The notes under the pieces are model-generated. The model saw only the letters and a list, made by a program, of their open reading frames with translations. It was not told the DNA's origin and did not search any database. Made by a program: the position numbers and the translations under genes. From contig CAYTAG010000001.1 of assembly GCA_964435625.1 (NCBI GenBank), positions 7,190-71,189 on the forward strand: a stretch of DNA of 64,000 nt. The letters run 5' to 3'. Of the stretch, positions 36,736 through 56,950 are shown piece by piece. Every line of letters starts with the position of its first letter. The first letter of the stretch is position 1. The DNA comes from an uncultured Halobacteriales archaeon. Its GTDB lineage: Archaea > Halobacteriota > Halobacteria > Halobacteriales > PXRE01.

Positions 36736-36752
36736 CACATAGGTCTGGGAAG

Positions 36753-37367
36753 TTAGTCTGTGGCCGACCACTCGTCGAGCGTCGTCTGGCCGGTCGCGTC
36801 CGGCCGGCCAGCCTCGTCGACGGCGCCGCTCGACGAGCAGGACGGATCAGCATCGCCGGCGTCGCCGTCGAAAACGGTCGCGGCGCCGTTGCCCGTCGGC
36901 CCTAGATCTCGCCCGGGCGCGTCGCGATGGTCGACCGCAGGCTCGCCGCAGGTCCCGCAGCGGAGGCCGGCGCCCGGGCCGTCCGGGATGATCGGCGCGT
37001 CGCAGTCGTCACACCAGGGGATCTCCTCGTCGAGGTCGCTGGCCTGGGCGTCGAGCGCGTCCCGGAGGACCTCGACGTCGTAGTCGACGGCCTGCTCGCC
37101 GCGGACGTCCGGGGCCGCGACGTCGACGCCGGCCATCTCGGCGGCCCGCTCGATGGCGGCCTCGTAGTGGTGGACGCAGGTCAGGACCTCGGCGCCGGCG
37201 ACGTCGACGCTGATCCTGGATGCGTGGCCGCAGAAGCCGTCGACGGCCAGCGCCACGCGGTCGAACTGGTCGTCGTCGGGGTCCGGGACCGTCCCACAGG
37301 GCGGGCTCGTCCGGGGCGGGAGCGTGCTGATTGTCGGGACGGCCGCCTCCGACGGCGCCTCAGACAT
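36753..37367 (-). CDS. hypothetical Cys-containing acidic protein
   Basis: Start set at the internal Met (MSEAPSE), preceded by GGAGGGT. CDDC...CGTCG. Confidence 0.55.
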   Translation of the reverse strand: MSEAPSEAAVPTISTLPPRTSPPCGTVPDPDDDQFDRVALAVDGFCGHASRISVDVAGAEVLTCVHHYEAAIERAAEMAGVDVAAPDVRGEQAVDYDVEVLRDALDAQASDLDEEIPWCDDCDAPIIPDGPGAGLRCGTCGEPAVDHRDAPGRDLGPTGNGAATVFDGDAGDADPSCSSSGAVDEAGRPDATGQTTLDEWSATD

Positions 37368-37560
37368 CGGTGGACCCTCCATCACAGCCGATGCCTGTGT
37401 GTAGGTCGCGGCGATCACACCAGGTATCGGTGCAAATCCAAGCCTCGCCGGTCTTGATGAAAGCCCGCGAGCCGTCGCGCCCTACGGATGTTAGTACCTG
37501 ACGCCCTCCGCAGTCGGGACAGTCCCTCTCGTCACCGAGTGAGCGGTCAGTACTGTTCAT
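37360..37560 (-). CDS. small zinc-ribbon protein
   Basis: CPDCGG...CTDTWC. Internal Met gives an ATGA overlap. Confidence 0.5.
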   Translation of the reverse strand: MNSTDRSLGDERDCPDCGGRQVLTSVGRDGSRAFIKTGEAWICTDTWCDRRDLHTGIGCDGGSTDV

Positions 37561-37784
37561 GACTCGCTCACCCGCCATCCATCAGCAGGTTGCTGGTATC
37601 CTCCCTCGTACCCGCAGTGAGGACACGGCCGACCACCGCAGAGGCACGCCCGATTGCAACAGTCCGGACACACGTGGTGACCGACACCGCGCTCGACGAA
37701 CTCCTGGGGTGGGTGGGAGAGCCCGCGCTCGTTGCGGTACGGTTCATCTGCCGTGTCAAACCTGTTAGCAGTGTCCTCAGACAT
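37557..37784 (-). CDS. small Cys-rich zinc-finger protein
   Basis: CPDCCNRACLCGGRPCPHCG. Confidence 0.5.
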   Translation of the reverse strand: MSEDTANRFDTADEPYRNERGLSHPPQEFVERGVGHHVCPDCCNRACLCGGRPCPHCGYEGGYQQPADGWRVSES

Positions 37785-38571
37785 CTGCCGGCCCCCCTGG
37801 ATGCCCACCGAACGTGGTGAGATCTGGCTGAAGACAGTCCGGCTTCGGGATGTCGAGGACGTCGATGGGCGCGTGATGGAGGAGCCAGTAAACGTACTCC
37901 TTCGGGACCGCCGACCGGACGCCCTGCTTGCCCCACTCGGCGGGGACGCCTTTCGCGTCGGCCAGGGCTTGCACGGACTGCTCGTCGCGGGTGTCTATCG
38001 AAATCTCCGGCGTGCCCGGGGCAACGGCGTTCGGGCACTCGAATGAGGTCTGGAAATGGCGTTCGAGGTCGTAGGGCTGACCGAAGGCCAACCCGTTCAA
38101 TCGCACGTCCGGGTCGAGGTCCCCGACCCGCGTGGCCCCGGGGACGTTCTCGATGATCCAGTGGCGCGACCACTGCCGATAGTGGACGTCGACGACGCGG
38201 CTTCGATGCAGGTAGCGAAGACCTGCCTCAAGGGCCGCTTCGCGCGACCCGTAGTGGATCGGTGCGAGGGACGTGTACGGCGAGCAGGGCGGACTCGCCC
38301 AGATGAGATCCGCGAACGGCGCCCCGATGGGCGGCCGAGTCATGTCCGCCTGGACGAAGTGCCCAGGGTACGTGTCGGACCGATCCACGATGTCGAACCC
38401 GATGAGGTTGATGTCCTGGTCCAGCTGAGCGAGCGCGTGGCCGACGCCGCCATGGCCGCAGAACAGATCGAGGACGAGCGGCGTCTCCGGATCGTCGAAG
38501 ATGTTGTCCTGGATCGGCGGGCGGACCACCTCCGATCCCCCACCACCGCCCACAGACGCGTCACTCGCCAT
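37777..38571 (-). CDS. DNA (cytosine-5) methyltransferase
   Basis: Motif I LDLFCGHGG, motif IV SPPCSPYT, motif VI IIENVPG. Internal Met of track ORF 37777..38703. Confidence 0.85.
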   Translation of the reverse strand: MASDASVGGGGGSEVVRPPIQDNIFDDPETPLVLDLFCGHGGVGHALAQLDQDINLIGFDIVDRSDTYPGHFVQADMTRPPIGAPFADLIWASPPCSPYTSLAPIHYGSREAALEAGLRYLHRSRVVDVHYRQWSRHWIIENVPGATRVGDLDPDVRLNGLAFGQPYDLERHFQTSFECPNAVAPGTPEISIDTRDEQSVQALADAKGVPAEWGKQGVRSAVPKEYVYWLLHHAPIDVLDIPKPDCLQPDLTTFGGHPGGPADV

Positions 38572-38839
38572 CGTCACCCTCCTCGACAGGCCGCCGGTCG
38601 GCAATCTCGACGTGGCCGTAGAGTTCGCACGTCGGGCACTGCACCGGCCCGCAACAGTCCCCGCACTGTCCGGCCATGGCGTCACAGTCCCTGCTGAAGA
38701 CATGGACCCGGCCGCGGGCCGTCTTGACCTCCGTCCGCACCGGGTACTCGTCGGCCCACTGGCCGCCGCAGTTCCCGCACGCGTACTCGACCTCGAACGC
38801 GGGGGGCGCGCTGGCAGCCTCGCCGTTGGTCGGCGTCAC
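38561..38839 (-). CDS. zinc-ribbon protein
   Basis: CGNCGG...CGDCCGPVQCPTC. Confidence 0.6.
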   Translation of the reverse strand: MTPTNGEAASAPPAFEVEYACGNCGGQWADEYPVRTEVKTARGRVHVFSRDCDAMAGQCGDCCGPVQCPTCELYGHVEIADRRPVEEGDDGE

Positions 38840-39045
38840 GTCGAATCCCCTCCGAACGGCCTCCGAAGCGTTAACAGGGCAGCAACGATCACGGCCACGG
38901 CGGCCACATCCCGGCTCCGCAGAAGGAACCGGATGCCGGCGTACAGGACCCCGAGTAGGTACCAGACCGAGCGGTCGGGGGTCTGCTGGGAGTGGTCGGC
39001 AGTGCGGTCCGGTCGTCGGTTAGAGTCGTTCCGTGTGCTGGTCAT
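38836..39045 (-). CDS. small membrane protein
   Basis: 69 aa, two hydrophobic helices. Confidence 0.5.
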   Translation of the reverse strand: MTSTRNDSNRRPDRTADHSQQTPDRSVWYLLGVLYAGIRFLLRSRDVAAVAVIVAALLTLRRPFGGDST

Positions 39046-39362
39046 GCGTTCTCACTCTCCGTGTGCTGGTCGGCCTGGTCGCCGTCGAACTCGTCGAGAA
39101 GGCGATGGAGTCCGTCGTCCGCCTCCAACCAGTCCTGGATCTCTGGTCGCGTCATCGGCCGGGGCAACGGCACGTACTGGACCGGTTCCGCCGCGATGGC
39201 CGGCCCATCCGACTTCTCGGACCACTGCTCCCGGGCGTCGTGGCGGCCAAACCAGATCCGGCCCTTCCCGGACACCTCCGGCCCCTGCATGATGGTGAGC
39301 CAATCCCAGGAGTCGGCGTCGGGCTCCGCTGCGTCGGCGGCCTCCGGGGACCGCTCAGGCAT
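39042..39362 (-). CDS. hypothetical acidic protein
   Basis: Start at the Met preceded by GGAGGTGG. Confidence 0.5.
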   Translation of the reverse strand: MPERSPEAADAAEPDADSWDWLTIMQGPEVSGKGRIWFGRHDAREQWSEKSDGPAIAAEPVQYVPLPRPMTRPEIQDWLEADDGLHRLLDEFDGDQADQHTESENA

Positions 39363-40449
39363 CCGTACCACCTCCCTGATAGGCGTCGAGGCCGGCCTGC
39401 TGGTCGGGAAGGTCCGGGTACGGCTCCCGGTACGCGGGCCCGTCCCCGATGGTCTCCGGCGTCGGGCGGCGCCGCCAGGCTTTGGCCCAGGCCCGCTCGG
39501 CGGGAGAGCCCTGCTCGGTCAGGCGCTCGTCCGGCCAGAGGTGGACCCGCTGGCCGAGGTCGGCGCCGAGGTCCTGGACGGTCCGCAGGTGGCGGAACGC
39601 GTACTCGATCCAGACGCGGGGGTCCTGGCAGTCCGCCAGCGCCCGGGCCAGATTCACCTGGCCGGCCTCGCGGGCCGCCTCGATGCAGCCCTCGTAGTTC
39701 GCCCCGCGGGGGTTGATCGGCTCCGTGAACACGACCGTCGGGTCGAGGCGGTCCTGGAGCGTCGCCAGCAGGCGCCGGAGGTCCTCCCGGTCCTGGGTCG
39801 GGTACGTGGGCGACATCGAGACGTAGACCGGGACGCCGGCGTCGGCCAACCGCTCCAGGCCGCGCAGGCGGCGCTCGACGGTCGGGGCGCCCGGTTCCAG
39901 CGCCCGGACGGCGGCCTCGTCGAGCGCGGGGATCGAGGCGCCGACCGTCACGAGGTCGCGCTCGGCCAGCGCGGCCAGGAACTCGGCATCCCGCTCAGCG
40001 GCCAGGTGCGGCTTGCGGGTGAGGATGCGGACCGGGCGCCAATGGCCCGCCAGCACCATCACCGCTGCGCGGGTAACCGCCGCGACGGCGGGCGTCTGGT
40101 ACGGGTCCGTGGAGATGCTCATATGGACGACGCCCTGGCCGCGCCGCGTGCAGGGCCACTCCCGGTCGTCGGCCAGGTACCGCTGGCAGTCCTGGGCGAG
40201 ATGCTGCGGGAGGTCCTCGCGGACGAGCAAGTAGTCGCCCCAGTCGCCGGCCGGGTCCTCGATCCCCGCGTCGTCGAACTTGTCGCCGGGGTCGCCCCAG
40301 ATGGCCGGCATCGACGGCACGAAGCAGAAGCGACAGCCGTGGAGACAGCCGTCCGCGACGTTGACCACCAGGTCGCTCAGGCCCTTCTTGACGAGGTCCG
40401 AGTCCGACAGCGCTGTCGTCGATGGCGAGGTGGTGATCGTCGGCGTCAT
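39355..40449 (-). CDS. radical SAM protein, SplB / DNA-repair-photolyase-like (COG1533 type)
   Basis: CLHGCRFC (CxxxCxxC). ISTDPYQ. TRKPHL...RD. The overall pattern resembles the SPL-like family. Confidence 0.7.
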   Translation of the reverse strand: MTPTITTSPSTTALSDSDLVKKGLSDLVVNVADGCLHGCRFCFVPSMPAIWGDPGDKFDDAGIEDPAGDWGDYLLVREDLPQHLAQDCQRYLADDREWPCTRRGQGVVHMSISTDPYQTPAVAAVTRAAVMVLAGHWRPVRILTRKPHLAAERDAEFLAALAERDLVTVGASIPALDEAAVRALEPGAPTVERRLRGLERLADAGVPVYVSMSPTYPTQDREDLRRLLATLQDRLDPTVVFTEPINPRGANYEGCIEAAREAGQVNLARALADCQDPRVWIEYAFRHLRTVQDLGADLGQRVHLWPDERLTEQGSPAERAWAKAWRRRPTPETIGDGPAYREPYPDLPDQQAGLDAYQGGGTDA

Positions 40450-40892
40450 CGGATCGCCTCCAACAGATCCTCTGCGGTCATTTTTGAGGCGATAAACTGG
40501 CCAACAGCGGCCGGCCGATCCTCAACCACGGCCTCTGCCGTTTGGTAAATCGGAACCGACGTCCGCAGGCCCCCTTGCTCGCACTGAACCTCCCGGGCAG
40601 CCATCTCGACGTCGCAGAGCCCGAGGACCTCGTCATCGGCGAAGACGATGTAAATGCTCTCCAGCCCTTCCGGTGGTTCAGACGGTTCACCATCCCGAAC
40701 AGCCTGCTGGCCGTCGTAGTAGGGTCCTGTCGCGCACACGGCCTCTGCATCGGCGGACAGCATCTCTCGCAGACGGACGGCCTCGGAGCCATCGTAGAAC
40801 GCCGCGAACGGCGTCCAGTCGCCAAAGCCGTCCATCACGACAACGAGATCTGCGCCCCCGTAGTCGCACTCTACCGAGGACGGCTCGCTCAA
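40446..40892 (-). CDS. hypothetical acidic protein
   Basis: 148-aa ORF, 4-nt overlaps at both ends. Confidence 0.55.
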   Translation of the reverse strand: MSEPSSVECDYGGADLVVVMDGFGDWTPFAAFYDGSEAVRLREMLSADAEAVCATGPYYDGQQAVRDGEPSEPPEGLESIYIVFADDEVLGLCDVEMAAREVQCEQGGLRTSVPIYQTAEAVVEDRPAAVGQFIASKMTAEDLLEAIR

Positions 40893-41086
40893 GCCGACTC
40901 ACCCCCCCAGTCGGTTATAATCGCCTGCAGGACGGTCACCGCGAGATAGAAGCCGATCCCCAGGAACGCCGCGAGAGCCAGATGCGACGGCGGCGAATCG
41001 ACGCCGATAACCAGCATCGCCACGAGGCCGGCACCGGCTGCGGCCAGTGGGGACGCTTCATCAAGATACCATCGGAGCCGGCTCAT
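40889..41086 (-). CDS. small membrane protein
   Basis: 65 aa, two TM helices. Confidence 0.5.
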   Translation of the reverse strand: MSRLRWYLDEASPLAAAGAGLVAMLVIGVDSPPSHLALAAFLGIGFYLAVTVLQAIITDWGGESA

Positions 41087-41616
41087 GCAGACCCTCCCTG
41101 GAACTGGTCGAGCGTCGCGTGCTCGGATTGCTGGGTCCCCGAGGACTCCCGTTCGATCTCGTCCGGCGCCGGATGGTGCGCGACGTCGATGTCGGTCTCG
41201 CTAGCGAGGACGTCCGCTAGGAGCCGTCGATGGCACCACAGCGGGTCGCGCTCCCAGCAGATGAGCCACACGTCGTGGCCCGCGTCCGCGCGGTCCAGGA
41301 CGCGCCGCTGGACCTGCTGGAGGACCTGATGCGGCTCCGGTTGCGCCAGATGGTCCCGGTAGCGGCTCTCGAAGTCGACGGTCGCCCAGGCGACCTGCAT
41401 GGGCCGCGCGGCGCCGTCCTCGTCGGCCGCCTCCTCGACCTGCTTCGTCGGGGCCAGGAGGTCCTCGGGCGGGCCCAGCGTCTCCTCGTTCCAGTCCACG
41501 ATTGCGTGGACGAAGTCCCGAGGGCGCCGAACCACGCCGAGGACGAGGTCGTCCGGCGCGGGCTCTGCGACCTCGGACCCCGTCGAGAGGGCGCTGAAGT
41601 ACGAGGTCCGGATCAA
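41083..41616 (-). CDS. DUF488-family protein
   Basis: N-terminal MIRTSYF and the C-terminal signature VWLICWERDPLWCHRRLLADVL. Confidence 0.55.
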   Translation of the reverse strand: MIRTSYFSALSTGSEVAEPAPDDLVLGVVRRPRDFVHAIVDWNEETLGPPEDLLAPTKQVEEAADEDGAARPMQVAWATVDFESRYRDHLAQPEPHQVLQQVQRRVLDRADAGHDVWLICWERDPLWCHRRLLADVLASETDIDVAHHPAPDEIERESSGTQQSEHATLDQFQGGSA

Positions 41617-42047
41617 CGCTGGTCACCCCCGTCATCCCAGGCTTCCAGACACACCCACGAGCAGAACGCCACCTGCCCGTCGTCGGTGCTCCGGTACGTC
41701 CACCCGGGAATCCGGTTCCCGACTGTGATGTTGTACTTCTCGACACCGCATTGCACACACTCCGCCTCGCACACCTGGACCCGACGGAGGTGGGCGTGCG
41801 GACAGTACGGACACGAGACGACGGCATACCCGGTCCAGGCTGTGAACACCCACAGCAGGTTGCCAACCGGAGTCATGGCGAGCAAGAATCCGATGGCAAT
41901 CGCTCCGAGGATCGCCAGCACCAGGACGCTAGTGTCGAACAGCAGGGTGACTGCCGCGAGGGAGCCGCCCGTCAGCAACCCGGACCCGAGTCGAGTGATG
42001 ATCAGGCCTCGTCTCGCGTCCGTCCGGGTATCGAAAGCGGACCCCAT
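41613..42047 (-). CDS. membrane protein with Cys cluster
   Basis: TM helices followed by CPYCPHAH...CEAECVQCG. Confidence 0.55.
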   Translation of the reverse strand: MGSAFDTRTDARRGLIITRLGSGLLTGGSLAAVTLLFDTSVLVLAILGAIAIGFLLAMTPVGNLLWVFTAWTGYAVVSCPYCPHAHLRRVQVCEAECVQCGVEKYNITVGNRIPGWTYRSTDDGQVAFCSWVCLEAWDDGGDQR

Positions 42048-42370
42048 CAGGCGTCACCCCCGTCATCGGTGGGTGATCGGTCGGCCTCACGGACGGCAGG
42101 GGGCGGACCGGACTCGACGCGGCCACGCCAGTAGCCGAGGCCCAGCCACAGGCACAAAGCCAGCAGCGCGGCGACGAAGTCGAAGGCGTCCCCCGTCGCG
42201 GTCGCGCGGACGAAGACGTCCATCAGTAGCGCGATGACGGTAAACACAATCGCCGCCTGTAGCACCGGCGTCGACCGGCCGTCGTTGACTTCCCGATACA
42301 GGCTTTCGACCAGAATCAGGAGTAGGAAGACGCCAAACCCGATGTCATGGGCCTGGAGTTGGAGGATCAT
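42047..42370 (-). CDS. membrane protein
   Basis: 107 aa, three TM helices. Confidence 0.55.
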   Translation of the reverse strand: MILQLQAHDIGFGVFLLLILVESLYREVNDGRSTPVLQAAIVFTVIALLMDVFVRATATGDAFDFVAALLALCLWLGLGYWRGRVESGPPPAVREADRSPTDDGGDA

Positions 42371-47297: not shown

Positions 47298-47550
47298 CGA
47301 TACCACGCACCTCCAATTTCCTCCGGGCTTTCTGCCGGATCTCGTCCGCTCGATCCTCGAGTCCGAGGCTACGCACCTCGTACTCGACACAGAAATCGAG
47401 TGGCGCATCTTCGAGGACGCCCACGACGACATTATAAACGGCGTCCTCCACCAGTTCATCCTCGCTGAAGTCGTCCGGCCAGATCCGCACGCCAGACAGA
47501 TCGTAATGGCCGGCCCGTTCTGGAGGCCCCCCGACGTCCGAATCAGTCAT
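47290..47550 (-). CDS. hypothetical acidic protein
   Basis: Internal Met (MTDSDVGG). 8-nt overlap. Confidence 0.5.
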   Translation of the reverse strand: MTDSDVGGPPERAGHYDLSGVRIWPDDFSEDELVEDAVYNVVVGVLEDAPLDFCVEYEVRSLGLEDRADEIRQKARRKLEVRGIDG

Positions 47551-50933: not shown

Positions 50934-51892
50934 GTCTCGTCACCTCCATCGGTGGGGACGTGCGGACTGCACGCCGCGCACATGGCCCCGCTCGGCAGGT
51001 GGACGCAGTTGCAGTCGGCCAGCGATTCGTCGGGCGCCGTGGCCGGGTTGCCTGCCGCATCCTGGTCGGCAGCCTCCTGCTCAGGGCCGCCGTCCGTCAG
51101 GAGCATCGGATCGTCGTCCGCGGGGACGAGACGCAGGCCGCCGGCCGCCCGCTCGTAGAGGCGGACTTCGTCGTCGCCAGCGACGCCGAGGTGGTCGAGC
51201 GCCTGGCCGCCCACGCCGATCCGGCCGTCCTCCCAGACCTCGTGGCTGCCCATCAAGCGGGGGTCCGAGGCGTCGGCGTCCCGGACCAGGGCGACGCTTT
51301 CATTCGGTTCTTCGAGGGCATGGACCTCGGCAATGTCCTCGCCCCAGGGCCCTTTCGTCCGGAGATTGAAGATCACCTCGCGGTTGGAGATCGAGTAGGT
51401 GCCGAGGTAGCCGTCGCCGGTAGGGTTGACGTACTTCGATCCGCCGTCGGAGCGGAGTGGCCCCGTCTCGGAGCCGAGGTTCTCCGCGATGTTTTGGCAT
51501 CGCGAACACTGGTCCAGGTCGAGCAGGCGTTCCGCAACGGCCCGGGGCACCTCCAGGTACCCCAGGCCGGCATAGCCACAGACCGGCTTTTGCTTCCCGG
51601 AGTTGTCGACCACCTCGTGGTAAACGGAGTGGACCTGCGATGGCTGGGTGGTGGCGGCGTCCTGGTCGACGGTGGCCGTGGGCAGCGTGCTGATCGCCAC
51701 GGACACCGTATCGTCGCGCTCGTCGTCGAACAGGAGCAGCAGGTCAGCGGCCGCCCGGAACACCTCGCTCCGGGACGGCCACTGGCCATCCTCGACGAGG
51801 TCCTGGACCGCGTCGACGGCCTCCTGTCGGTACCGGACGGTCTCGCGGGCCGTCTCGCCCTCGACGGACGATGGCGAGGCGTCACTCACCAT
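50930..51892 (-). CDS. ribbon-helix-helix plus AbrB-like domain protein
   Basis: RHH-like ETVRYRQEAVDAVQDLVEDGQWPSRSEVFRAAADLL. SKYVNPTGDGYLG. GGQALDHLGVAGDDEVRLYE. Start at the Met preceded by GGAGGTGA. Confidence 0.6.
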   Translation of the reverse strand: MVSDASPSSVEGETARETVRYRQEAVDAVQDLVEDGQWPSRSEVFRAAADLLLLFDDERDDTVSVAISTLPTATVDQDAATTQPSQVHSVYHEVVDNSGKQKPVCGYAGLGYLEVPRAVAERLLDLDQCSRCQNIAENLGSETGPLRSDGGSKYVNPTGDGYLGTYSISNREVIFNLRTKGPWGEDIAEVHALEEPNESVALVRDADASDPRLMGSHEVWEDGRIGVGGQALDHLGVAGDDEVRLYERAAGGLRLVPADDDPMLLTDGGPEQEAADQDAAGNPATAPDESLADCNCVHLPSGAMCAACSPHVPTDGGDET

Positions 51893-52838
51893 CGTCCTCA
51901 CCTCCCGACGGCTCAACCTGCTCGCGGATCTCCTCGGCGTCGTGGCGGTTCAGCAGGCTCACCACGGCGCCGACGTCCCGGGCGTCGTCCATCGTCGGGC
52001 ACCGCACCTCGACGACTTCAACGGTCCCGTAACTGTCGGCCTCGTGGTCGTAGACGGTTTTCTCGCCGGCGTGGTGGTTGGTGATCTCATCCTGTCCCTC
52101 GCCGGCGCCGGCTTCCGACGCTTTCCCAGCGGGGTCACCGGCAGGCGTCCCGCCGTCGGTTGCGAGATGCCCATCGTCGTCGCCCAGGGGCCGCCCGCAC
52201 GACGGGCAGTAGTCCCAGGACGGTGCACAGAGCCGGTCGCAGTCGCAGGCCTCCTGGGCCGGCAGCGGTGTCCCGTCCTCGTTCTCCTCGGCCCCCTCAG
52301 TCTCGGAGACAGTCTGACCGCCGTCCGTCGCGAGGCGGGCCTGGTCGTCTGCGCGGTCGGTGCGCTGGACGTCGACGATCTCTCCGAGCGCCCCCCCTGC
52401 CTCGGAGTGCACCGACTCCCACGCCGGCCACAGCAGCAGGTCGGGGTCGTCCTCCCGCGCCAGGACGACCTCGGGAGTCCCGGTCGGGGCGCCGTGCTCG
52501 TCGGTGATCGGCCTGATCGCCCCGACCTTCGCGGTCCGCTCCGGGTCGTACTTCGATCTCGGCGTCTCGTAGGTGACCTGGAGTTCGTCGTCCTCCGCGA
52601 GGTCAGTAATGCCGAACAGGTCGTCCTGGTGCCACAGTGACCCCGAACACTGGCCACAGCCGTCGACCGGCGGGACGATCTCTCCCCAGGTGGCCCTCAG
52701 TTCGACGTCGCGAACGTCGTCGACGTCGACCTTCTGGCCGCAGGCCAGCAGATGCTTCCGGCCCTCCATCTCGACGGAGATGTGCCACTGCAGGGACCGA
52801 AACCGTTCGTCGACGAGGACCAGCGTCGTCTCGCTCAT
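51882..52838 (-). CDS. hypothetical acidic protein with Cys cluster
   Basis: 318 aa. CDCDRLC...CPSCG. Two LATDGG motifs. Confidence 0.55.
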   Translation of the reverse strand: MSETTLVLVDERFRSLQWHISVEMEGRKHLLACGQKVDVDDVRDVELRATWGEIVPPVDGCGQCSGSLWHQDDLFGITDLAEDDELQVTYETPRSKYDPERTAKVGAIRPITDEHGAPTGTPEVVLAREDDPDLLLWPAWESVHSEAGGALGEIVDVQRTDRADDQARLATDGGQTVSETEGAEENEDGTPLPAQEACDCDRLCAPSWDYCPSCGRPLGDDDGHLATDGGTPAGDPAGKASEAGAGEGQDEITNHHAGEKTVYDHEADSYGTVEVVEVRCPTMDDARDVGAVVSLLNRHDAEEIREQVEPSGGEDDGE

Positions 52839-54037
52839 GCGGCATCACCGTCCTCGTCCGTGGTGGCGGTCTGTTGCTGGTCCTCGAGGACGTGGCAGGC
52901 GTGTCTCGCGACGGCGACCGGGTTCGCGTCCAGCGAGTGTGCGACGTGGGAGATGTGGGCCGCGAGTTGGTAGAACGCGAAGTCGTCGAGGACGGCGTCC
53001 GCCTGGAACGAGGGGATCGTCTCGGTCCCGTCCTCGTCCGACACGATCACCATCACCGACTCGACCTCCTCGGGGTCCACGTCGACGAGGTACTCCCCGA
53101 GCGCCTGCAGGTGGTCGGCGTGACTGTCGAGGTCGCCGTCGAACCAGGCGAGCGGGTGGTCGTCCGGCAGGTCCTCCGGGGCCGTGTGAACGTCGACGCC
53201 GCCGTCCTGGACTTTTTCGTCAACAGCCTGGTCGCCGTCCGCCATGACGCGGGGATCGTCGTCGGCGTCGACGAGTAGCACTTCGTCGGACCCGTGTTCG
53301 TAAGCCCGGACGTCATCGTCCGGCCCAACCCCCAGCGCGTCGAGGGCAGGCCCCCCGACGCTGAATAGCGGATAGTTCCGCTCATTCGTGACAGTGCCCG
53401 CGTCGAGGATCTTGCGGTCCCCGGGTTCGGTGGTGATGGCCACTCCGTCCTCGGCGGCCACGATGTCCGCGTCGTCGCCGTCGTCGAGGCCCAAATGCCG
53501 GAGGGCGTCGCCCCCGAGTTGCGTCCGCTTCCGGGAGTCGACACCGAACACGCCGAGGTAGCCGTCGCCAGTCTCGCGGACGTACTTCGATCCGCCGTCG
53601 GTCCGAGCGTCGTGGCCCTCGTTGCAGCCTTCGATACCGCAACCAGTCAGACCGCATTCAGGACACTCCCAACAGGCGTCCCCGGCCGGAGTAGGTTCGG
53701 CATCACAGGAGATGCACTCGTCGGGGATTTGTTCAGACGTGCCCCCGTCGGCCATCGCGACCGCCGTCGCCGCGTCGCCCCCGCTGCAGGTCGGGCAGGC
53801 CGACCAGCGCTCGTCGAGCGTGTCGGGGTCAACCTCATTCACGCCCGCGTTCGGCAGGTCCGGGCAGTGGCGGTCCTCGTGGTACTCGTCCTCGCCCTCG
53901 GCGCGGAGGCCCGCCGGAGCGGTGTAAACGCTCTCGGTGTCGAACTGCCGCCAGCGGTCGGCTCCGCAGTCGCACTCCGCAGCGGGCAACTCCTCGTAGA
54001 CCTGCTGGCAGTTCCGACACTCGAAGGCGGTCGCCAT
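52835..54037 (-). CDS. zinc-ribbon plus AbrB-like domain protein, paralog of 50930..51892
   Basis: CRNC...CDCG at the N-terminus. SKYVRETGDGYLG. GGDALRHLGLDDGDDADIV and GGPALDALGVGPDDDVRAYE. Internal Met preceded by GGAGGTGG. Confidence 0.6.
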   Translation of the reverse strand: MATAFECRNCQQVYEELPAAECDCGADRWRQFDTESVYTAPAGLRAEGEDEYHEDRHCPDLPNAGVNEVDPDTLDERWSACPTCSGGDAATAVAMADGGTSEQIPDECISCDAEPTPAGDACWECPECGLTGCGIEGCNEGHDARTDGGSKYVRETGDGYLGVFGVDSRKRTQLGGDALRHLGLDDGDDADIVAAEDGVAITTEPGDRKILDAGTVTNERNYPLFSVGGPALDALGVGPDDDVRAYEHGSDEVLLVDADDDPRVMADGDQAVDEKVQDGGVDVHTAPEDLPDDHPLAWFDGDLDSHADHLQALGEYLVDVDPEEVESVMVIVSDEDGTETIPSFQADAVLDDFAFYQLAAHISHVAHSLDANPVAVARHACHVLEDQQQTATTDEDGDAA

Positions 54038-54900
54038 CAGGCCCCACCTCCCTCGCGGTCGTTGGCGTCCTCGATCTTCTCTGCCAGGTGACGGAGCGCC
54101 GCGGCCGGCGTCTCTCCACCAACATCCTGATAGTTGATGCCGGTGTCGACGCTTGCCGACCAAATCTCGCGTTCTTCGTCTCCGTCGCGGACTGCCGTCC
54201 GCCCGACCGAGATTTCAAACCGACGGCCATCATCATCCTGGCTATCCGTATCCGCAGGCGCGGCGCCGTCCGTCGCGAGGGCGAAGTAGTAGGATGACGA
54301 CTCGAGATCGTCCCAACTTCCGTGGGTAGCGAGGACCTCCCACGCGTGCATCAACTCGGAGTCCGGCACCGGCCCACCTGCGAACGTGTCGTGGTCGGTC
54401 TGATGGTAGTGCGCCGCCGCCGCCGTCGTGATCTCAGAGTCGCGAGTCGGCTGCTCGACGTCGAACTGCTCGGCCACCAGGAACGAGCAGTCGTTGCAGA
54501 TGTTGAGGACGCGGCCCTCAGTGTCGACGTCGTCGTCCTCCAGACCCTCGTCGCTCGCCGTGGTGGCCAGCCCACCGTCAGCGACGGCCTTGCCCGGGTC
54601 GACGTAGATGACGTCCTCAAGGCGGTCGAGTTCCGTCCGCAGCAGGTCCTCGCCGGCCTCGGTGGGTGCGTACCAGTTCGTCCGCCGGTCGCGCTGGCCC
54701 TTCTCGATGTACCCCTTCTCGACGAGGTCGTCGAGGTTCGGGTACAGCCGGCCGTGGTTGACCTCCTCGTAGATCGCTTGCAGGCGCTCCTTGATGGCGA
54801 GGCCGTGCGGGGGGTCGTCCAACTCGTGGTCGAGACGCGCCGTCTCGATCAGGACGTTCCACTGGAACGCGGTCAGGACCGACCAGGGCGTCGCCTTCAT
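54037..54900 (-). CDS. PadR-like wHTH regulator with C-terminal extension
   Basis: HGLAIKERLQAIYEEVNHGRLYPNLDDLVEKGYIEKGQRDRRTNWYAPTEAG. Confidence 0.65.
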   Translation of the reverse strand: MKATPWSVLTAFQWNVLIETARLDHELDDPPHGLAIKERLQAIYEEVNHGRLYPNLDDLVEKGYIEKGQRDRRTNWYAPTEAGEDLLRTELDRLEDVIYVDPGKAVADGGLATTASDEGLEDDDVDTEGRVLNICNDCSFLVAEQFDVEQPTRDSEITTAAAAHYHQTDHDTFAGGPVPDSELMHAWEVLATHGSWDDLESSSYYFALATDGAAPADTDSQDDDGRRFEISVGRTAVRDGDEEREIWSASVDTGINYQDVGGETPAAALRHLAEKIEDANDREGGGA

Positions 54901-55370
54901 GCCTCATCCCCCCGTTTGAGGTCGACCAGTCGATGGTCGATGTACTGCTGGACCTCGTCGGGGTCGGGGTAGCCGTCGGCCTTCCGCAGCGTCGCGCCGG
55001 TGAGCGCGTCGACGATCTCCTCGCCGCCTAGGTCGCCGTCCTGGTGCAGCTTCCGGAGGTCGTCTCGGGTGGCCACGACCTCCTCAGCGGTCGCCTTCCA
55101 GTCCGGCACGTCGACGTCCGAGGCGCCCTGGAGGTCCTCGTAGACGACGCGCTTGACCTGTGTCTCGGGGACGCAGATCTCGGCGGCGAGCGTCGGCGTC
55201 TCCAGTTCCGGGACTTCGACCTCAAGTTCGACCTTGACCGGGTACTCAGTCGGCTTCCGGTCGCTCTTGTCTGGTTTGGTCTTCCGGAACCGGAGGTCAT
55301 CGTCGCGCCAGTCGACGAGCACCCACCCACGGTAGGTCTTCGTCCGGGCGTCACGACTGCCGTCGGTCAC
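54897..55370 (-). CDS. hypothetical protein
   Basis: 157-aa ORF. GGAGGTGAG lies upstream. Confidence 0.55.
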   Translation of the reverse strand: MTDGSRDARTKTYRGWVLVDWRDDDLRFRKTKPDKSDRKPTEYPVKVELEVEVPELETPTLAAEICVPETQVKRVVYEDLQGASDVDVPDWKATAEEVVATRDDLRKLHQDGDLGGEEIVDALTGATLRKADGYPDPDEVQQYIDHRLVDLKRGDEA

Positions 55371-56386
55371 GCCCCCTCACCTCCGTTGGGCTCGCCCTGC
55401 TCGTCGCCGACCTCGTCCCAGACCGCTATACCGACAGCGAGCGGCCCAGGCAGTTCCGTGTAGTGATTCCTAATCGGCTCCCAGCCGTCATCGTCCTCCC
55501 GTTCCAATAGCCGAACCGTGCCCCCGTAGTCGACTCCGATTGCTCTGTCTCCGTTGACCAACAGGCTGTCGTGGGTTGTATCAGAATCCTGCAATTCCCA
55601 GTCCTCAGGAAGAAGCTGACGAATATTCTCCTCCCTCTTCTTCCGAAGCGTTCCTTCGTCGGAGGCCTGGCCGCCGTCCGTCACGAGTTGCGCCTGCTCG
55701 TCGGTGGTGGGGCCATCGGGGCAGGGGTCGAACTCCTCCAGGACCTCGTACGCGCGCTCGCGGCGGTCGGCGTGCGGCGGGATCGACGCCGAGTAGGTGC
55801 TCGACGCGTCGATACAGCGCTCGCCGGCGCCGGCCGAACACGTGGGGCAGTCGACGGCGGTCTCCGGCTCCAGGCCGCGCCAGACGGCCTGGCAGGCGAT
55901 ACAGACAGTGATCGTCTCCCCTCTCGTCCCGTCGTGGATCCGCGCCCACTGGTGGGCGCCCTCGACGAGGGTGGGGTCGTCGACCGACGCGTGGGTGTTG
56001 CAAACCGGCAGGTCGTTCGTCGCGTACGCGCTGTACGAGCAGGGCTTCCCGCTGCCGGTGAGCGCGAGACAGTCCTCGTCGACGTCGGCGCCGTGGACGA
56101 CGGCCTCGAACGGCCAGTCGATCCGTTCCGGCGTGTCTTCGCCGCCATCGGTCGCGACGTCGCTGCTGTCGACGTTCACCGGCCGCTTGCGGCCCTGGCC
56201 CTGATTCTGGTAGAGGTCCGGGATCCGCGAGTCAGAGATCTGGTGCCCGCACGGGTCGAGTCGCACTTCGTCCGGGCCGACGGCGTCGATCCCTGCCACC
56301 GGGGCACCGCAGGTCGTACAGTACCCAGTCTGGTTGTCGTTCTGTGCTCCGGAATCCTTTTGCGTCGTGTGGTCCGATTGGTACAT
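55367..56386 (-). CDS. multi zinc-finger protein, first gene of the 34-gene operon
   Basis: Start at the internal Met (MYQSDHTT). The longer track ORF (to 56983) would overlap the opposite-strand repressor gene. CTTCG...CGH, CIAC...CPTC. Confidence 0.6.
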   Translation of the reverse strand: MYQSDHTTQKDSGAQNDNQTGYCTTCGAPVAGIDAVGPDEVRLDPCGHQISDSRIPDLYQNQGQGRKRPVNVDSSDVATDGGEDTPERIDWPFEAVVHGADVDEDCLALTGSGKPCSYSAYATNDLPVCNTHASVDDPTLVEGAHQWARIHDGTRGETITVCIACQAVWRGLEPETAVDCPTCSAGAGERCIDASSTYSASIPPHADRRERAYEVLEEFDPCPDGPTTDEQAQLVTDGGQASDEGTLRKKREENIRQLLPEDWELQDSDTTHDSLLVNGDRAIGVDYGGTVRLLEREDDDGWEPIRNHYTELPGPLAVGIAVWDEVGDEQGEPNGGEGA

Positions 56387-56659
56387 GGTTGCGGCACCGT
56401 GGTTGCCGGAACCGACGCGGGCCGGAGCCCCTTTCTCCGGCTCGCAGATTCTACGAGACCAGCAACCGCTCAGCCAACGTCCAGCGTGGAGTGTGGCGCG
56501 GAGCCCGTCATCGGTTCCTATCTGCCTTGAGACACTATAGTTAAATAAGCTTAACCCTACATCACTAGTTCTGAACAGATAGTCTGGTAGCGACCATTTA
56601 CTGTTTTCTGAGTCACCCTCCACGGTGAGAATAAACGACGCTCCATCGTCTATGATACC
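56387..56659. promoter_or_regulatory. divergent control region between the repressor-like gene and the long operon
   Basis: AT-rich core GAGACACTATAGTTAAATAAGCTTAACCCTACATCACTAG. Hairpin CCGGAG-N7-CTCCGG near 56432. Confidence 0.5.
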
Positions 56660-56950
56660 ATGAGAATAAGGCTGCCGGCAGACTGGATGGTGCCCGCCGA
56701 CGAGCGGGTGCTGGAATATCTCTACACCGAGGGCCCGAAATCCCCGTCGAACATTGCCCGCGACGACCGGGTAGATTTCTCTCGAACGACGGTTAACACT
56801 CGTCTTCTGAAACTCGCAGCTGCAGGTCTGGTTAACAAGGACGAAATCGGCCGTGGCATCTACGAGATCTCGGACAAGGGCGAAAAGTTCCTCACTGGCG
56901 AGTTCGATGCTCGGGACCTCCCGGATCCCGATACCGACGGCGAGATTTGA
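56660..56950 (+). CDS. phiH1-repressor-like winged-helix regulator
   Basis: MRIRLPADWMVPADERVLEYLYTEGPKSPSNIA...TVNTRLLKLAAAGLVNKDEIGRGIYEISDKGEKFLTGE. Confidence 0.75.
   Translation: MRIRLPADWMVPADERVLEYLYTEGPKSPSNIARDDRVDFSRTTVNTRLLKLAAAGLVNKDEIGRGIYEISDKGEKFLTGEFDARDLPDPDTDGEI

What the first reader, a model, noticed from the sequence alone, without database searches (positions are those of the whole stretch)
36753..56950. 34-gene, zero-gap unidirectional operon under a divergent phiH-repressor-like gene, with no recognisable virion or replication genes
Seen: 34 consecutive minus-strand ORFs run from 56386 down to 36753, and every junction overlaps by 1 to about 55 nt. They follow a 273-bp AT-rich control region, and a wHTH gene of the phiH1-repressor type is transcribed the other way. 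A nested hairpin follows the last stop. The content is dominated by DNA-binding proteins (PadR-like, RHH, AbrB-like, C2H2+wHTH, a TFB cyclin repeat), more than 10 zinc-ribbon or Cys-cluster proteins, about 9 small membrane proteins, and a DNA-modification/repair subset. Established: in halophage phiH the repressor gene sits divergent to the early lytic transcript. Inference: this is a repressor-gated early or takeover module of a temperate virus or virus-like plasmid. I cannot recognise any capsid, portal, terminase, tail, polymerase, helicase or Orc1/RepH gene in it or elsewhere in the window. It may therefore belong to a mobile-element class whose replication and transfer machinery is not yet described.
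Basis: partly seen in the sequence, partly recalled or inferred. Interest (0 to 1): 0.7.

Follow-up and report, generated by a model that had tools for sequence, protein, structure and literature searches.

The report
Regulatory operon of lemon-shaped-virus-like plasmid
The 34-gene block is real, but it is the repressor-controlled regulatory operon of a large haloarchaeal virus-plasmid hybrid whose replication gene (RepH), partition gene (ParA) and a homolog of the main particle protein of the recently described lemon-shaped virus LSV-48N lie right beside it, so it is not a new class of mobile element.

Summary
There are 34 minus-strand genes (56386 to 36753). All 33 junctions overlap, mostly by 4 or 8 nt, and 25 of 34 starts carry Shine-Dalgarno motifs. 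A 273-nt control region separates the block from a divergent wHTH gene that matches PDB 3B73 'PhiH1 repressor-like protein' and RepR of phiH and PhiCh1. The domain calls (PadR, TFB repeat, radical SAM, DUF488) and the counts (9 membrane proteins, 13 Cys-cluster proteins) are right.

The claim of 'no replication or virion genes anywhere' is wrong. The next gene downstream (32920-36333) is a full-length RepH. ParA follows. Upstream (60412-63546) lies a homolog of the most abundant virion protein of lemon-shaped virus LSV-48N.

The whole window is collinear with LSV-48N (25 kb) and with a 34-kb Natrinema plasmid. The shared order is a structural and membrane gene cluster, the RepR-like gene, then a divergent operon with a PadR-like gene at or near its head, ending next to a large replication-type gene.

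The block is therefore an expanded, mostly orphan version of a known operon type. LSV-48N has 12 genes there, V_ICIS4 has 29, and the phiH right arm has about 36. It sits on a replicon of at least 68 kb that carries RepH and ParA. It is a new variant of a known kind, of moderate interest.

The parts
56660..56950 (+). Divergent regulator, 96 aa, wHTH of the PhiH1-repressor (RepR) type
   Evidence: PDB 3B73 'PhiH1 repressor-like protein', E=3.5e-12, full length. 33%/85 aa to PhiCh1 RepR and 31% to phiH RepR. 32%/82 aa to LSV-48N CDS0001. 36% to the L017 MarR-type gene and 41% to the L003 gene.
56387..56659 (.). 273-nt divergent control region. It has an AT-rich core (about 56520-56600) with TATA-like boxes in both directions. 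Inverted operator-like 11-mers CGTGGAGKGTG lie at 56485-56495 and 56614-56624. The operon leader of about 130 nt has two hairpins (56417-56445 and 56387-56413).
   Evidence: Sequence and GC profile. The 11-mer occurs exactly only at these two sites in the 64 kb. The region is the same length (about 270 nt) in LSV-48N and L017. The leader hairpins are also predicted in L017 with 4 compensatory pairs, from only 2 sequences. The promoter and operator roles are inferred.
36753..56386 (-). 34-gene translationally coupled operon (g01-g34)
   Evidence: Gene chain from codon-position GC, overlapping junctions and SD motifs. Only one TATA-like hexamer lies on the sense strand in 19.6 kb.
55367..56386 (-). 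g01, 339-aa multi-zinc-finger protein
   Evidence: Pfam Phage_zn_bind_8, 4e-6. The N-terminus is weakly similar to LSV-48N CDS0037, which is the first gene of that operon (E=0.003). Two TDGG motifs.
54897..55370 (-). g02, conserved halovirus protein of unknown function
   Evidence: phrog_21750, 8e-31. Homologs in phiH (PhiH1_320), PhiCh1, Hardycor1, HHTV-1 and HSTV-2. The AF2 model (pLDDT 75) has no fold neighbour in the PDB or BFVD.
54037..54900 (-). g03, PadR-like regulator
   Evidence: Pfam PadR, 6e-13. 47-48%/83 aa to phiH PhiH1_295 and PhiCh1 ORF56. 38%/106 aa to LSV-48N CDS0036. 42% to the first operon gene of L017.
50930..54037 (-). g04, g05 and g06: Cys-cluster proteins. g04 and g06 share a paralogous 'TDGGSKYV..TGDGYLG' domain, and g06 has a weak RHH.
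   Evidence: Repeat D14, 88% nt identity. RHH_1, 0.003. g06 has 1 homolog in 5.8 billion proteins. The domain model has pLDDT 52 and gives no fold call.
48033..49865 (-). g10, 610-aa acidic protein with C2H2-like zinc finger and wHTH
   Evidence: Pfam HTH_27 and MarR. The sequence contains CAVDGCEETFGSERAMKIHRTKAH.
46531..46941 (-). g14, single TFIIB/TFB cyclin repeat
   Evidence: Pfam TFIIB, 2e-13. phrog_20431, 1e-10. A TFB-like gene is also reported in Tebi-SV1 (PMC13612827).
43633..44610 (-). g19, phage-type nuclease-like ('DNA repair') protein with a C-terminal coiled coil
   Evidence: phrog_14517, 4e-30, and phrog_5429. Homologs in many bacterial phages. About 90 haloarchaeal homologs in varied contexts.
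41083..41616 (-). g24, DUF488 protein
   Evidence: Pfam DUF488-N3a, 1e-9. phrog_2450, 5e-21. 34%/140 aa to LSV-48N CDS0028 in the equivalent operon.
39355..40449 (-). g27, radical SAM protein of the PA0069/Rv2578c (SplB-like) group
   Evidence: Pfam Radical_SAM, 3e-14. NCBIfam rSAM_PA0069, 3e-25, below cutoff. 43-48% to radical SAM genes on haloarchaeal plasmids.
37777..38571 (-). g31, small DNA methyltransferase-like protein
   Evidence: phrog_363 'DNA methyltransferase', 9e-14. Motifs FCGHGG and SPPC are visible in the sequence. The C5 specificity is inferred.
36679..36745 (-). Nested hairpin after the last stop codon (candidate operon terminator)
   Evidence: Fold of -42.1 kcal/mol, z=-1.85. 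The terminator role is inferred.
36334..36752 (.). 419-nt non-coding spacer with a TTTATAA box (about 36650) and a second hairpin. It is a candidate repH promoter or regulatory region.
   Evidence: Sequence. The only ORF here encodes a basic, non-halophile-like peptide. TATA-like hit at 36650.
32920..36333 (-). repH, 1137-aa plasmid/virus replication protein RepH
   Evidence: tblastn to ChaoS9 repH: 100% coverage, 31% identity, 2e-83 against the phage collection; E=4e-104 for the same match in a local search of ChaoS9 alone. Also matches phiH and PhiCh1 repH and pHV2, pNG 'replication protein H' and 40 other haloarchaeal plasmids. N-terminal DUF5817.
30353..32006 (-). parA (30897-32006) plus a downstream 183-aa acidic partner
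   Evidence: Pfam AAA_31, CbiA and ParA. Similar to ParA of ChaoS9, phiH, PhiCh1 and L017.
56984..57229 (-). 81-aa zinc-ribbon gene convergent with the regulator. It is the positional counterpart of LSV-48N CDS0002.
   Evidence: ORF with a coding GC3 pattern. The position was compared with LSV-48N. No sequence similarity.
58069..59175 (-). Matrixin-like lipoprotein (lipobox LAGC, HEFGH motif)
   Evidence: Pfam Peptidase_M10, 5e-7. 37% to the L017 gene at the same position.
59201..60412 (-). Three small polytopic membrane proteins (147, 125 and 129 aa)
   Evidence: 40-50% to L003. The 147-aa protein is similar to LSV-48N CDS0008, PL23, V_ICIS4 and L017.
60412..63546 (-). Large secreted and membrane-anchored LamG protein (1044 aa from the start at 63546). 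It is a homolog of the most abundant LSV-48N virion protein.
   Evidence: Pfam Laminin_G_3. The C-terminal 460 aa are 33% identical to LSV-48N CDS0012 over 85% coverage, 1e-44. Also similar to V_ICIS4, PL23, L017 and L018. In the proteomics the 672-aa protein next to a 122-aa one is the most abundant virion protein (PMC12714723 Dataset EV2); its mapping to CDS0012 is inferred from gene order and sizes.
177..2140 (+). Three-gene operon (95 aa, 237 aa, and a 322-aa P-loop NTPase at 1172-2140) behind an AT-rich promoter region (1-176). It is the counterpart of LSV-48N CDS0021-0023 and L017 25152-26915.
   Evidence: 34%/181 aa to L017 and 27% to PL23. Walker A lies at the same place as in LSV CDS0023, which hits Zot. 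Sequence.
11015..11644 (-). Small tyrosine integrase/recombinase
   Evidence: 59%/209 aa to LSV-48N CDS0025, 2e-80. Pfam Phage_integrase, weak.

Best explanation
The block is the non-structural (regulatory, DNA-metabolism and host-interaction) operon of a large virus-plasmid hybrid of a haloarchaeon. The element spans at least 68 kb and comes from a contig of 71.6 kb. Its backbone is collinear with the lemon-shaped temperate virus LSV-48N (proposed family Almyrocitroviridae) and with related 23-34-kb plasmids. It additionally carries the RepH and ParA replication and partition genes known from phiH-type proviruses and haloarchaeal plasmids.

Proposed mechanism. A RepR/PhiH1-type winged-helix repressor (56660-56950) is transcribed divergently from an AT-rich core. 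It probably binds the two inverted 11-mers that flank this core, and so controls the leftward promoter. That promoter yields one long transcript with a structured leader of about 130 nt. The 34 genes are translated by coupling, through overlapping stop and start codons and SD motifs embedded in the preceding gene. The products are mainly DNA-binding proteins (multi-zinc-finger proteins, PadR, RHH, wHTH, a TFB repeat). There are also a DNA modification and repair set (nuclease-like protein, DUF488, SplB-like radical SAM, methyltransferase) and 9 small membrane proteins. Together they would reprogramme host and element transcription and protect or modify the element's DNA. The operon ends at a hairpin. 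repH follows behind its own 419-nt spacer and occupies the slot where LSV-48N and L017 have other large replication-type genes.

Shown: the gene structure, the homologies and the collinearity. Inferred: repressor binding, a single transcript, the functions of the orphan genes, circularity and particle formation.
For: Gene chain and coupling. Regulator identity. RepH and ParA.

Shared genes and order with LSV-48N: the regulator, the PadR-like gene near the head of the operon, weakly the first gene, DUF488 in the same operon, the integrase (59%), the major virion protein homolog and a small membrane protein.

Collinearity with circular plasmid CP084478. The order is LamG/membrane cluster, matrixin-like gene, RepR-like gene, divergent PadR-led operon, large protein, ParA, integrase, glycosyltransferase and NTPase operon. 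L003 shares the regulator, g19 and the LamG cluster. L022 extends the element with two more structural-cluster-type ORFs. The divergent control regions have the same length, about 270 nt.

Comparable long overlapping operons occur in V_ICIS4 (29 genes), LSV-48N (12 genes) and the phiH right arm (about 36 genes after a divergent imm gene and a 151-nt leader).

Literature. LSV-48N is temperate, chronically shed, exists both as an episome and integrated, encodes PadR-like, wHTH and AbrB-like regulators, and is associated with lower transcription of host defence genes (PMC12714723). In phiH, RepR represses lytic transcription and the L region replicates as a plasmid (PMC6471424).
Against: Only 3-4 of the 34 block genes (g01 weakly, g03, g24, and g02 with phiH) have counterparts in the related elements. 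The rest are orphans or cassette-like, so functional equivalence of the whole operon is an extrapolation.

The element is about 3 times larger than any described family member. No candidate major capsid protein has been identified, and the ORF of at least 1437 aa has no detectable similarity to the family's second large protein. RepH is not found in LSV-48N or L017.

I could not see the last 3 kb or so of the contig, nor prove circularity. No transcription data are available. The terminator hairpin and the leader fold are only marginally better than shuffles (z=-1.85 and -1.45). One TATA-like hexamer inside g12 (47438) could be an internal promoter.
Confidence: 0.7

Rival explanations
1. One reading: the block belongs to a mobile-element class whose replication and transfer machinery is not yet described.
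For: Most block products are orphans with no family hit. No head, tail or terminase gene turned up among the ORFs searched in the window. The LamG cluster has no relatives among IMG/VR viral contigs.
Against: A full-length RepH lies directly downstream and ParA is nearby. A virion-protein homolog, an integrase, a P-loop NTPase and the regulator/PadR design of LSV-48N are all present. That family has been published and named (PMC12714723, PMC13612827).
Confidence: 0.04
2. It is a degraded phiH-type (Vertoviridae) provirus, or a pPhiHL-like L-segment plasmid. It would keep the lysogeny and replication region (RepR, PadR-led early operon, RepH, ParA) but would have lost its head and tail genes.
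For: Five phiH/PhiCh1 homologs (RepR, PadR-like PhiH1_295, PhiH1_320, RepH, ParA). The phiH L segment replicates autonomously as a plasmid (PMC6471424). The architecture resembles the phiH right arm.
Against: No other phiH, PhiCh1 or ChaoS9 gene is shared. The gene order differs, since in phiH repH follows repR directly. The flanks are collinear with LSV-48N and CP084478, including a lemon-shaped-virus virion protein. No remnants of terminase, portal, capsid or tail genes were found.
Confidence: 0.08
3. It is an ordinary RepH/ParA plasmid that acquired LSV-like and phiH-like genes by recombination and no longer forms particles. On this view the 34-gene operon is a constitutively or auto-regulated accessory operon, not an inducible 'early' module.
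For: RepH and ParA are plasmid maintenance genes found on more than 40 haloarchaeal plasmids. The window carries cargo: a glycosylation cluster, a DDE transposase and DUF6610. The element is far larger than the family's known genomes. Block genes such as g19 and the radical SAM gene occur in unrelated contexts. Recombination between haloarchaeal plasmids and viruses is reported (PMC10818511).
Against: Collinearity with a whole circular relative (CP084478) and with LSV-48N extends around the window. That argues for a coherent element and against scattered remnants. The structural-cluster ORFs are intact and long.
Confidence: 0.17
4. It is a pR1SE-type plasmid (apHPV) that spreads in self-encoded membrane vesicles. 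The small membrane proteins and the LamG protein would be vesicle components.
For: pR1SE carries a RepH as ORF1. The largest core protein of apHPVs has a variable N-terminus and a conserved C-terminus, like the LamG protein here (PMC10818511). The window encodes many small membrane proteins.
Against: No S8 peptidase or VirB4/HerA-like ATPase was found among the ORFs scanned. The closest complete relative, CP084478, is not in the apHPV table, whereas another plasmid of the same strain is. The LamG protein is instead homologous to an LSV-48N virion protein. pR1SE itself could not be fetched for a direct comparison.
Confidence: 0.03

Closest known systems
Haloferax virus LSV-48N and relatives (proposed family Almyrocitroviridae; also Halorubrum virus V_ICIS4 and the plasmids N. 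pharaonis PL23, Natrinema DC36 CP084478 and Halobaculum pCBA1158-3)
   Same: The gene order is shared: structural and membrane-protein cluster, small convergent gene, RepR-like wHTH gene, a divergent control region of about 270 nt, a tightly overlapping operon with a PadR-like gene at or near its head that contains DUF488 and a methyltransferase, and a large replication-type gene. Also shared are homologs of the most abundant virion protein, a small membrane protein and the integrase (59%), and a P-loop NTPase operon in the same slot.
   Different: The genome is at least 68 kb against 23-34 kb. The operon has 34 genes (19.6 kb) against 12 (7.7 kb) in LSV-48N. RepH and ParA replace the DUF7845-HTH protein of LSV-48N. 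There is an extra glycosylation cluster and an IS. The second large structural ORF (at least 1437 aa) shows no detectable similarity. About 30 of the 34 operon genes have no counterpart. No evidence of particles.
Lysogeny, early and replication region of phiH, PhiCh1 and ChaoS9 (Vertoviridae), and the L-segment plasmid pPhiHL
   Same: Homologs of RepR, the PadR-like first early gene, PhiH1_320, RepH and ParA. A divergent small regulator faces a long leader (151 nt in phiH T1-T3). A unidirectional, overlapping gene array of about 19 kb is rich in CxxC proteins, methyltransferases and small membrane proteins.
   Different: No terminase, portal, capsid, sheath or baseplate genes. In phiH, repH directly follows the repR-controlled promoter and the PadR operon is controlled from the imm side. 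Here one promoter region precedes the PadR-type operon, and repH lies at the operon's end.
RepH-type haloarchaeal plasmids (pHV2, pNRC100/pHH1 family, pNG plasmids)
   Same: A RepH homolog of comparable length and domain order (N-terminal zinc ribbon DUF5817, C-terminal HTH region). ParA is nearby.
   Different: Those plasmids do not carry the LSV-like structural cluster or the RepR and PadR operon in this arrangement. An AT-rich origin next to repH is not evident here: the spacer GC is 0.64.
pR1SE and apHPV vesicle plasmids
   Same: They are haloarchaeal plasmid-virus intermediates that carry cargo and many membrane proteins. pR1SE has a RepH.
   Different: The defining core genes were not found and the relatives are not listed among apHPVs.

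Membership tests
LSV-48N-like lemon-shaped viruses (proposed Almyrocitroviridae) | Homolog of the most abundant LSV-48N virion protein (CDS0012), followed by small membrane proteins | tested here: met
   33% identity over 85% of the C-terminal 462 aa, E=1e-44. The 147-aa protein is similar to CDS0008. The identification of CDS0012 as the abundant virion protein is inferred from Dataset EV2.
LSV-48N-like lemon-shaped viruses (proposed Almyrocitroviridae) | RepR/MecI-like wHTH gene divergent from an operon with a PadR-like gene at or near its head, at the same place relative to the structural cluster | tested here: met
   The control-region length is about 270 nt in both.
LSV-48N-like lemon-shaped viruses (proposed Almyrocitroviridae) | Tyrosine integrase(s) of the family | tested here: met
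   Window 11015-11644 is 59% identical to CDS0025 over 209 aa. The second, larger integrase was not found.
LSV-48N-like lemon-shaped viruses (proposed Almyrocitroviridae) | Most genes shared with the type virus, with a genome of about 25 kb | tested here: not met
   Only about 7 of about 80 window ORFs have LSV-48N homologs at E<=0.01. The element is at least 68 kb.
LSV-48N-like lemon-shaped viruses (proposed Almyrocitroviridae) | Second large structural protein (CDS0015-like) and a hydrophobic major capsid protein | tested here: inconclusive
   An ORF of at least 1437 aa sits in the equivalent position but shows no similarity. Candidate small hydrophobic proteins exist, but no test for a capsid protein was possible.
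LSV-48N-like lemon-shaped viruses (proposed Almyrocitroviridae) | Production of lemon-shaped particles, with both episomal and integrated forms | not testable with these tools
   Needs TEM, supernatant DNA and read-coverage data.
phiH-type myoviruses (Vertoviridae, Myohalovirus/Chaovirus) | Terminase, portal, HK97-type capsid, tail sheath and baseplate genes | tested here: not met
   None of these genes was found by tblastn of all window proteins against ChaoS9 (all but its first 5.2 kb), which covers the capsid, sheath, tube, tape-measure and baseplate genes. Pfam and PHROGs on the large ORFs found none either.
phiH-type myoviruses (Vertoviridae, Myohalovirus/Chaovirus) | L-region genes: repR, repH, parA and the PadR-like early gene | tested here: met
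   (E from 3e-6 to 2e-50).
RepH replicons | Full-length RepH protein | tested here: met
   100% coverage of ChaoS9 RepH, 2e-83. 42 plasmid records, including pHV2 and pNG 'replication protein H'.
RepH replicons | AT-rich origin region adjacent to repH and autonomous replication | tested here: inconclusive
   The spacer upstream of repH has GC 0.64. AT-rich regions lie at 32007-32245 (0.45) and 57230-57703 (0.50). Replication cannot be tested here.
pR1SE-like vesicle plasmids (apHPV) | Core ORF6-9 (including an S8 peptidase) and ORF17, 21 and 23-25 (including a VirB4/HerA-like ATPase) | tested here: not met
   No S8 peptidase or VirB4/HerA domain in the ORFs scanned. The relative CP084478 is absent from the apHPV table. 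A direct comparison with pR1SE was not possible.

The most novel reading that the evidence does not exclude
The roughly 72-kb replicon could be a functional 'giant' member of the lemon-shaped virus lineage. On this reading a RepH/ParA plasmid keeps the Almyrocitroviridae-type particle module and uses elastic spindle-shaped particles to move a genome three times the usual size, including a cell-surface glycosylation cluster. The 34-gene repressor-gated operon would be its host-reprogramming arsenal. Within that operon, the recurrent 'DDxxxLxTDGG' linear motif in the first gene products, which is shared with the early proteins of LSV-48N, Hardycor1, phiH and PhiCh1, would be a common docking motif for a host factor.
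Probability: 0.2. Interest if true: 0.7.

Novelty: new variant of a known kind. Interest (0 to 1): 0.45.

Why it matters
The finding links three things that are usually treated separately in haloarchaea: phiH-type lysogeny and replication genes (RepR, RepH, ParA), the just-described lemon-shaped virus family of LSV-48N, and 'plasmids' such as PL23 that are probably episomal viruses. It shows that the repressor-plus-PadR operon is a portable control module. It also shows that the replication slot at the end of this operon is exchangeable: RepH here, a DUF7845-HTH protein in LSV-48N, and another protein in CP084478.

LSV-48N infection is associated with lower transcription of host defence genes. 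A relative with a three-fold larger arsenal of DNA-binding proteins is therefore a natural place to look for the effectors. For annotation, the practical lesson is that several small haloarchaeal 'plasmids' and this contig carry a recognisable virus module.

Tried and rejected
1. DNA-level search of the whole block against phages and plasmids gave only three matches of 39-96 nt in g02 and g03.

2. A concatenated-protein tblastn of g11-g27 against plasmids hit essentially only the radical SAM gene.

3. ChaoS9 shares only RepH and ParA.

4. g19 was used as an anchor to find related loci in genomes, viral contigs and assemblies. It proved to be a cassette-like gene in unrelated contexts, except in L003.

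5. PDB sequence searches with RepH, g19, the 938-aa ORF and the LamG C-terminal profile found nothing.

6. NCBIfam and PADLOC gave no convincing defence system, only weak DUF488 and MTase hits.

7. Rfam found no known RNA in the window.

8. tRNA scan found none, so there is no tRNA att site.

9. A search for long direct repeats as att sites returned only codon-bias repeats.

10. The pR1SE hypothesis was rejected.

11. The LamG cluster has no relatives among IMG/VR viral contigs.

12. RepH shows no similarity to LSV-48N CDS0026.

13. Structure of g02: a moderate model with no fold neighbour.

14. Structure of the g04/g06 domain: the model is too poor to use.

15. A metagenome scan with a leader-derived pattern returned only chance hits in GC-rich DNA.

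16. Attempts to fetch DNA beyond the left edge failed.

17. I considered the TATA-like hexamer at 47438 as an internal promoter for a longer g13. I rejected this because the N-terminal extension is not protein-like.

Full report
OBSERVATION

The window is haloarchaeal-type DNA of about 67% GC, where raw ORF lists are noisy. I therefore rebuilt the gene chain from codon-position GC. Real genes here show GC1 about 0.7, GC2 about 0.47 and GC3 about 0.87.

Exactly 34 consecutive minus-strand genes run from 56386 to 36753. All 33 junctions overlap. With SD-guided start choices (g18 at 44992, g28 at 39362, g33 at 37560, g34 at 37367), most overlaps are 4 nt (ATGA/GTGA) or 8 nt. A match of at least 5 nt to the anti-16S motif precedes 25 of 34 starts, against 9% of internal in-frame ATG/GTG codons. 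This also explains why so many products end in '..GG(D/E)xA': the SD of the next gene is read as Gly-Gly. My calls are identical to the deposited proteins for g02, g03, g06, g10, g19, g27 and the regulator. All of these are singletons from one 71,636-bp NCBI contig.

The control region (56387-56659) is 273 nt with an AT-rich core. The divergent 96-aa gene matches PDB 3B73 'PhiH1 repressor-like protein' (E=3.5e-12). The hairpin after the last stop exists but is only moderately better than shuffles (z=-1.85).

So are the counts of 9 membrane proteins and 13 Cys-cluster proteins. Only 'AbrB-like' for g04 and g06 stays unverified. On the sense strand the 19.6-kb block holds a single TATA-like hexamer, at 47438, and it is probably incidental.

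The next gene downstream on the same strand (32920-36333) lies 420 nt after the block. It is a full-length RepH. It covers 100% of ChaoS9 repH (31% identity, E=2e-83). It also matches repH of phiH and PhiCh1, the replication proteins of pHV2 and pNG plasmids, and about 40 other haloarchaeal plasmids. ParA follows at 30897-32006. The statement that no RepH is recognisable in the window is therefore wrong, and so is the inference of undescribed replication machinery.

RELATION TO phiH

Local tblastn of all window proteins against phiH, PhiCh1, ChaoS9 and Hardycor1 gave five shared genes. The regulator matches RepR. g03 matches the PadR-like first gene of the early lytic transcripts T1-T3, at 47-48% identity. 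g02 matches PhiH1_320, which belongs to a family (phrog_21750) also present in HHTV-1, HSTV-2 and Hardycor1. RepH and ParA complete the set.

The phiH annotation shows the same architecture in its right arm. There a small divergent gene and a 151-nt leader precede about 36 same-strand, overlapping genes over 19 kb. These are rich in CxxC-motif proteins, methyltransferases and small membrane proteins. It also follows that a zero-gap array of more than 30 genes is normal for haloarchaeal viruses. No tailed-virus structural gene was found in the window.

RELATION TO LEMON-SHAPED VIRUSES

Contig L003 was found through g19. Besides g19 it shares the regulator and a cluster at 59.2-63.7 kb, in the same order. 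That cluster consists of a 1044-aa LamG protein with a signal peptide and C-terminal membrane anchor, followed by three small polytopic membrane proteins and a matrixin-like lipoprotein.

The conserved C-terminal half of the LamG protein recurs on small plasmids: Natrinema DC36 CP084478, Halobaculum pCBA1158-3 and N. pharaonis PL23. It matches CDS0012 of Haloferax virus LSV-48N (33% over 85% of the query, E=1e-44) and a protein of Halorubrum virus V_ICIS4.

LSV-48N is a temperate, chronically shed lemon-shaped virus that founds a new family (PMC12714723). The family has since been named Almyrocitroviridae (PMC13612827). In the supernatant proteomics, its most abundant virion protein is a 672-aa protein next to a 122-aa one. 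This maps by order and size to CDS0012 and CDS0011 (inference).

The window further shares several features with LSV-48N:
- the regulator (CDS0001);
- the PadR-like gene (CDS0036) and, weakly, the first gene (CDS0037) at the head of the divergent operon;
- DUF488 (CDS0028) further down the same operon;
- an integrase (59% identity);
- a small membrane protein (CDS0008).

The complete circular plasmid CP084478 is collinear with the window all the way round. The order is: structural and membrane cluster; matrixin-like gene; RepR-like gene; a control region of about 270 nt; a PadR-led operon; a large protein; ParA; integrase; glycosyltransferase; and a three-gene NTPase operon that faces the structural cluster. 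The window's left edge (1-176) is the AT-rich promoter region of that NTPase operon. The 322-aa P-loop protein (1172-2140) is homologous to the CP084478 and PL23 genes. It has its Walker A motif where LSV CDS0023, a Zot-like protein, has its own.

L022 is a 13.7-kb assembly contig that is 100% identical to window 54733-64000. It extends the element to about 68.4 kb and adds a 179-aa membrane protein and an ORF of at least 1437 aa upstream of the LamG gene. The roughly 3 kb still unseen would close the circle, if the contig is circular (inference).

INTERPRETATION

The block is the counterpart of the regulator-side operon of this lineage. That operon has 12 genes over 7.7 kb in LSV-48N, 29 genes over 9.9 kb in V_ICIS4 and about 10 genes in CP084478. 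Here it has expanded to 34 genes over 19.6 kb, and most of the additions are orphans.

The slot at the end of the operon holds a different large replication-type protein in each element: RepH here, a DUF7845-HTH protein in LSV-48N and a 554-aa protein in CP084478. The LSV-48N authors list PadR-like, wHTH and AbrB-like regulators. They suggest these may act on host genes, because infection is associated with lower transcription of defence genes.

The two exact inverted copies of CGTGGAGKGTG flank the AT-rich core and occur nowhere else in the 64 kb. They are candidate operators. The leader of about 130 nt has two hairpins that are also predicted in CP084478, with four compensatory pairs. With only two sequences and a fold z-score of -1.45, this is no more than suggestive.

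STRUCTURE-BASED CHECK

g02 gave a model with pLDDT 75, consisting of a three-stranded sheet plus a helical bundle. It has no significant neighbour in the PDB or BFVD other than its own homolog. The domain shared by g04 and g06 gave an unusable model. I found no hidden capsid, tail or replication fold, but only two of the 34 products could be tested.

RIVALS

- A degraded phiH-type provirus is unlikely, because the flanks are LSV-like and no tailed-virus remnants exist.
- A pR1SE-type vesicle plasmid is unlikely, because its core genes are absent and the relatives are not listed as apHPVs.
- The main live alternative is a plain RepH plasmid that has captured virus modules and no longer makes particles. 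The size of about 72 kb, the cargo genes and the IS favour this view. The intact, collinear structural ORFs argue against it.

VERDICT

The element is a new, much enlarged variant of a recently described virus/plasmid lineage that carries RepH and ParA. It is not a new class.

Noticed in passing
window 51085-51123, 52316-52354, 53230-53268, 55669-55707 (DNA repeat D11); peptide sites in g01, g04, g05, g06; also ORF 17984-20800: A short linear peptide motif 'phi-x-TDGG', often 'DDxxxLxTDGG' in acidic linkers, occurs 7 times in the block (0.33 expected from shuffling). All copies are in g01, g04, g05 and g06, and there are 3 more in the 938-aa ORF. It is also frequent in the regulator-side operons of LSV-48N (5-6 copies), L003 (8) and Hardycor1 (4), and in the PadR-like proteins of phiH, PhiCh1 and CP084478. 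A literature search found no description of it.
   Followed up: partly
window 51401-51450 and 53552-53601 (g06, g04): g04 and g06 share a paralogous domain, 'TDGGSKYV..TGDGYLG...VGG.ALD.LGV..DD.VR.YE', with 88% nt identity over 50 nt. There is only one other homolog in 5.8 billion proteins. The fold could not be predicted, so 'AbrB-like' is unverified.
   Followed up: partly
window 56387-56445 (operon leader) and L017 12397-12505: Two hairpins lie directly upstream of the first start codon, and the proximal one covers the ribosome-binding region. They are conserved between the window and plasmid CP084478 with 4 compensatory base pairs, although the first gene differs. This may be a translational or antisense control element, like the phiH T1 leader. 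Only two sequences are available.
   Followed up: partly
window 50625-50933 and 50251-50628 (g07, g08): Two adjacent small membrane proteins end in the same C-terminal hydrophobic tail, '..(L)AVVGVVF'.
   Followed up: no
window 17984-20800 (-): This 938-aa ORF has no hit in Pfam, PHROGs, NCBIfam, PADLOC or the PDB. It has three TDGG linkers, a g04/g06-like 'RLYVRDPGEGYL' stretch and a C-terminal Cys cluster. It is a singleton in the protein collection.
   Followed up: partly
window 22425-22482 and 23306-23363: A 58-nt inverted repeat (91% complementary, 823 nt apart) contains a TATA-like box and a start codon. It brackets two small minus-strand genes (22564-23210). It is either a duplicated divergent promoter and 5' region or a MITE-like element.
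   Followed up: no
window 29241-30190 (+): A second small wHTH of the same HVO_A0261_N/TrmB type as the RepR-like regulator (143 aa) heads a three-gene plus-strand unit next to parA.
   Followed up: no
window 2449-11005 (+): A cell-surface glycosylation-type cluster: a GT2 glycosyltransferase, two paralogous polytopic membrane proteins (3612-4928 and 6347-7633, phrog_21437; a 110-nt repeat at 4736/7429), a GtrA-FkbM methyltransferase fusion and an arylsulfotransferase-like protein. CP084478 and pCBA1158-3 carry a glycosyltransferase plus methyltransferase at the same relative position.
   Followed up: partly
window 13000-17520: A low-GC stretch (0.56-0.59) is followed by a 554-aa DDE transposase (15856-17520). 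It is probably an IS or foreign insertion.
   Followed up: no
window 57230-58060: This is the most AT-rich part of the window (GC about 0.50-0.54). It has an exact 11-nt direct repeat, TGAAAGTGAAA (57377, 57513), and a 14-nt inverted repeat. A 118-aa membrane protein follows on the plus strand. It is a candidate origin or second control region between the structural cluster and the regulator.
   Followed up: no
L022 2-4315 (about 64.1-68.4 kb on the window scale): An ORF of at least 1437 aa lies upstream of the LamG gene. It has long Gly/Ser-rich low-complexity ends, no family hit, and no similarity to the large proteins at the equivalent position in LSV-48N or CP084478.
   Followed up: partly
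window 36753-56386, C-termini of most products: Most proteins of the block end in 'GG(E/D)xA'-type tails, because the Shine-Dalgarno sequence (GGAGGTGA) of the next gene lies inside the coding end of the previous one. This is a useful signature for calling starts in such operons.
   Followed up: yes
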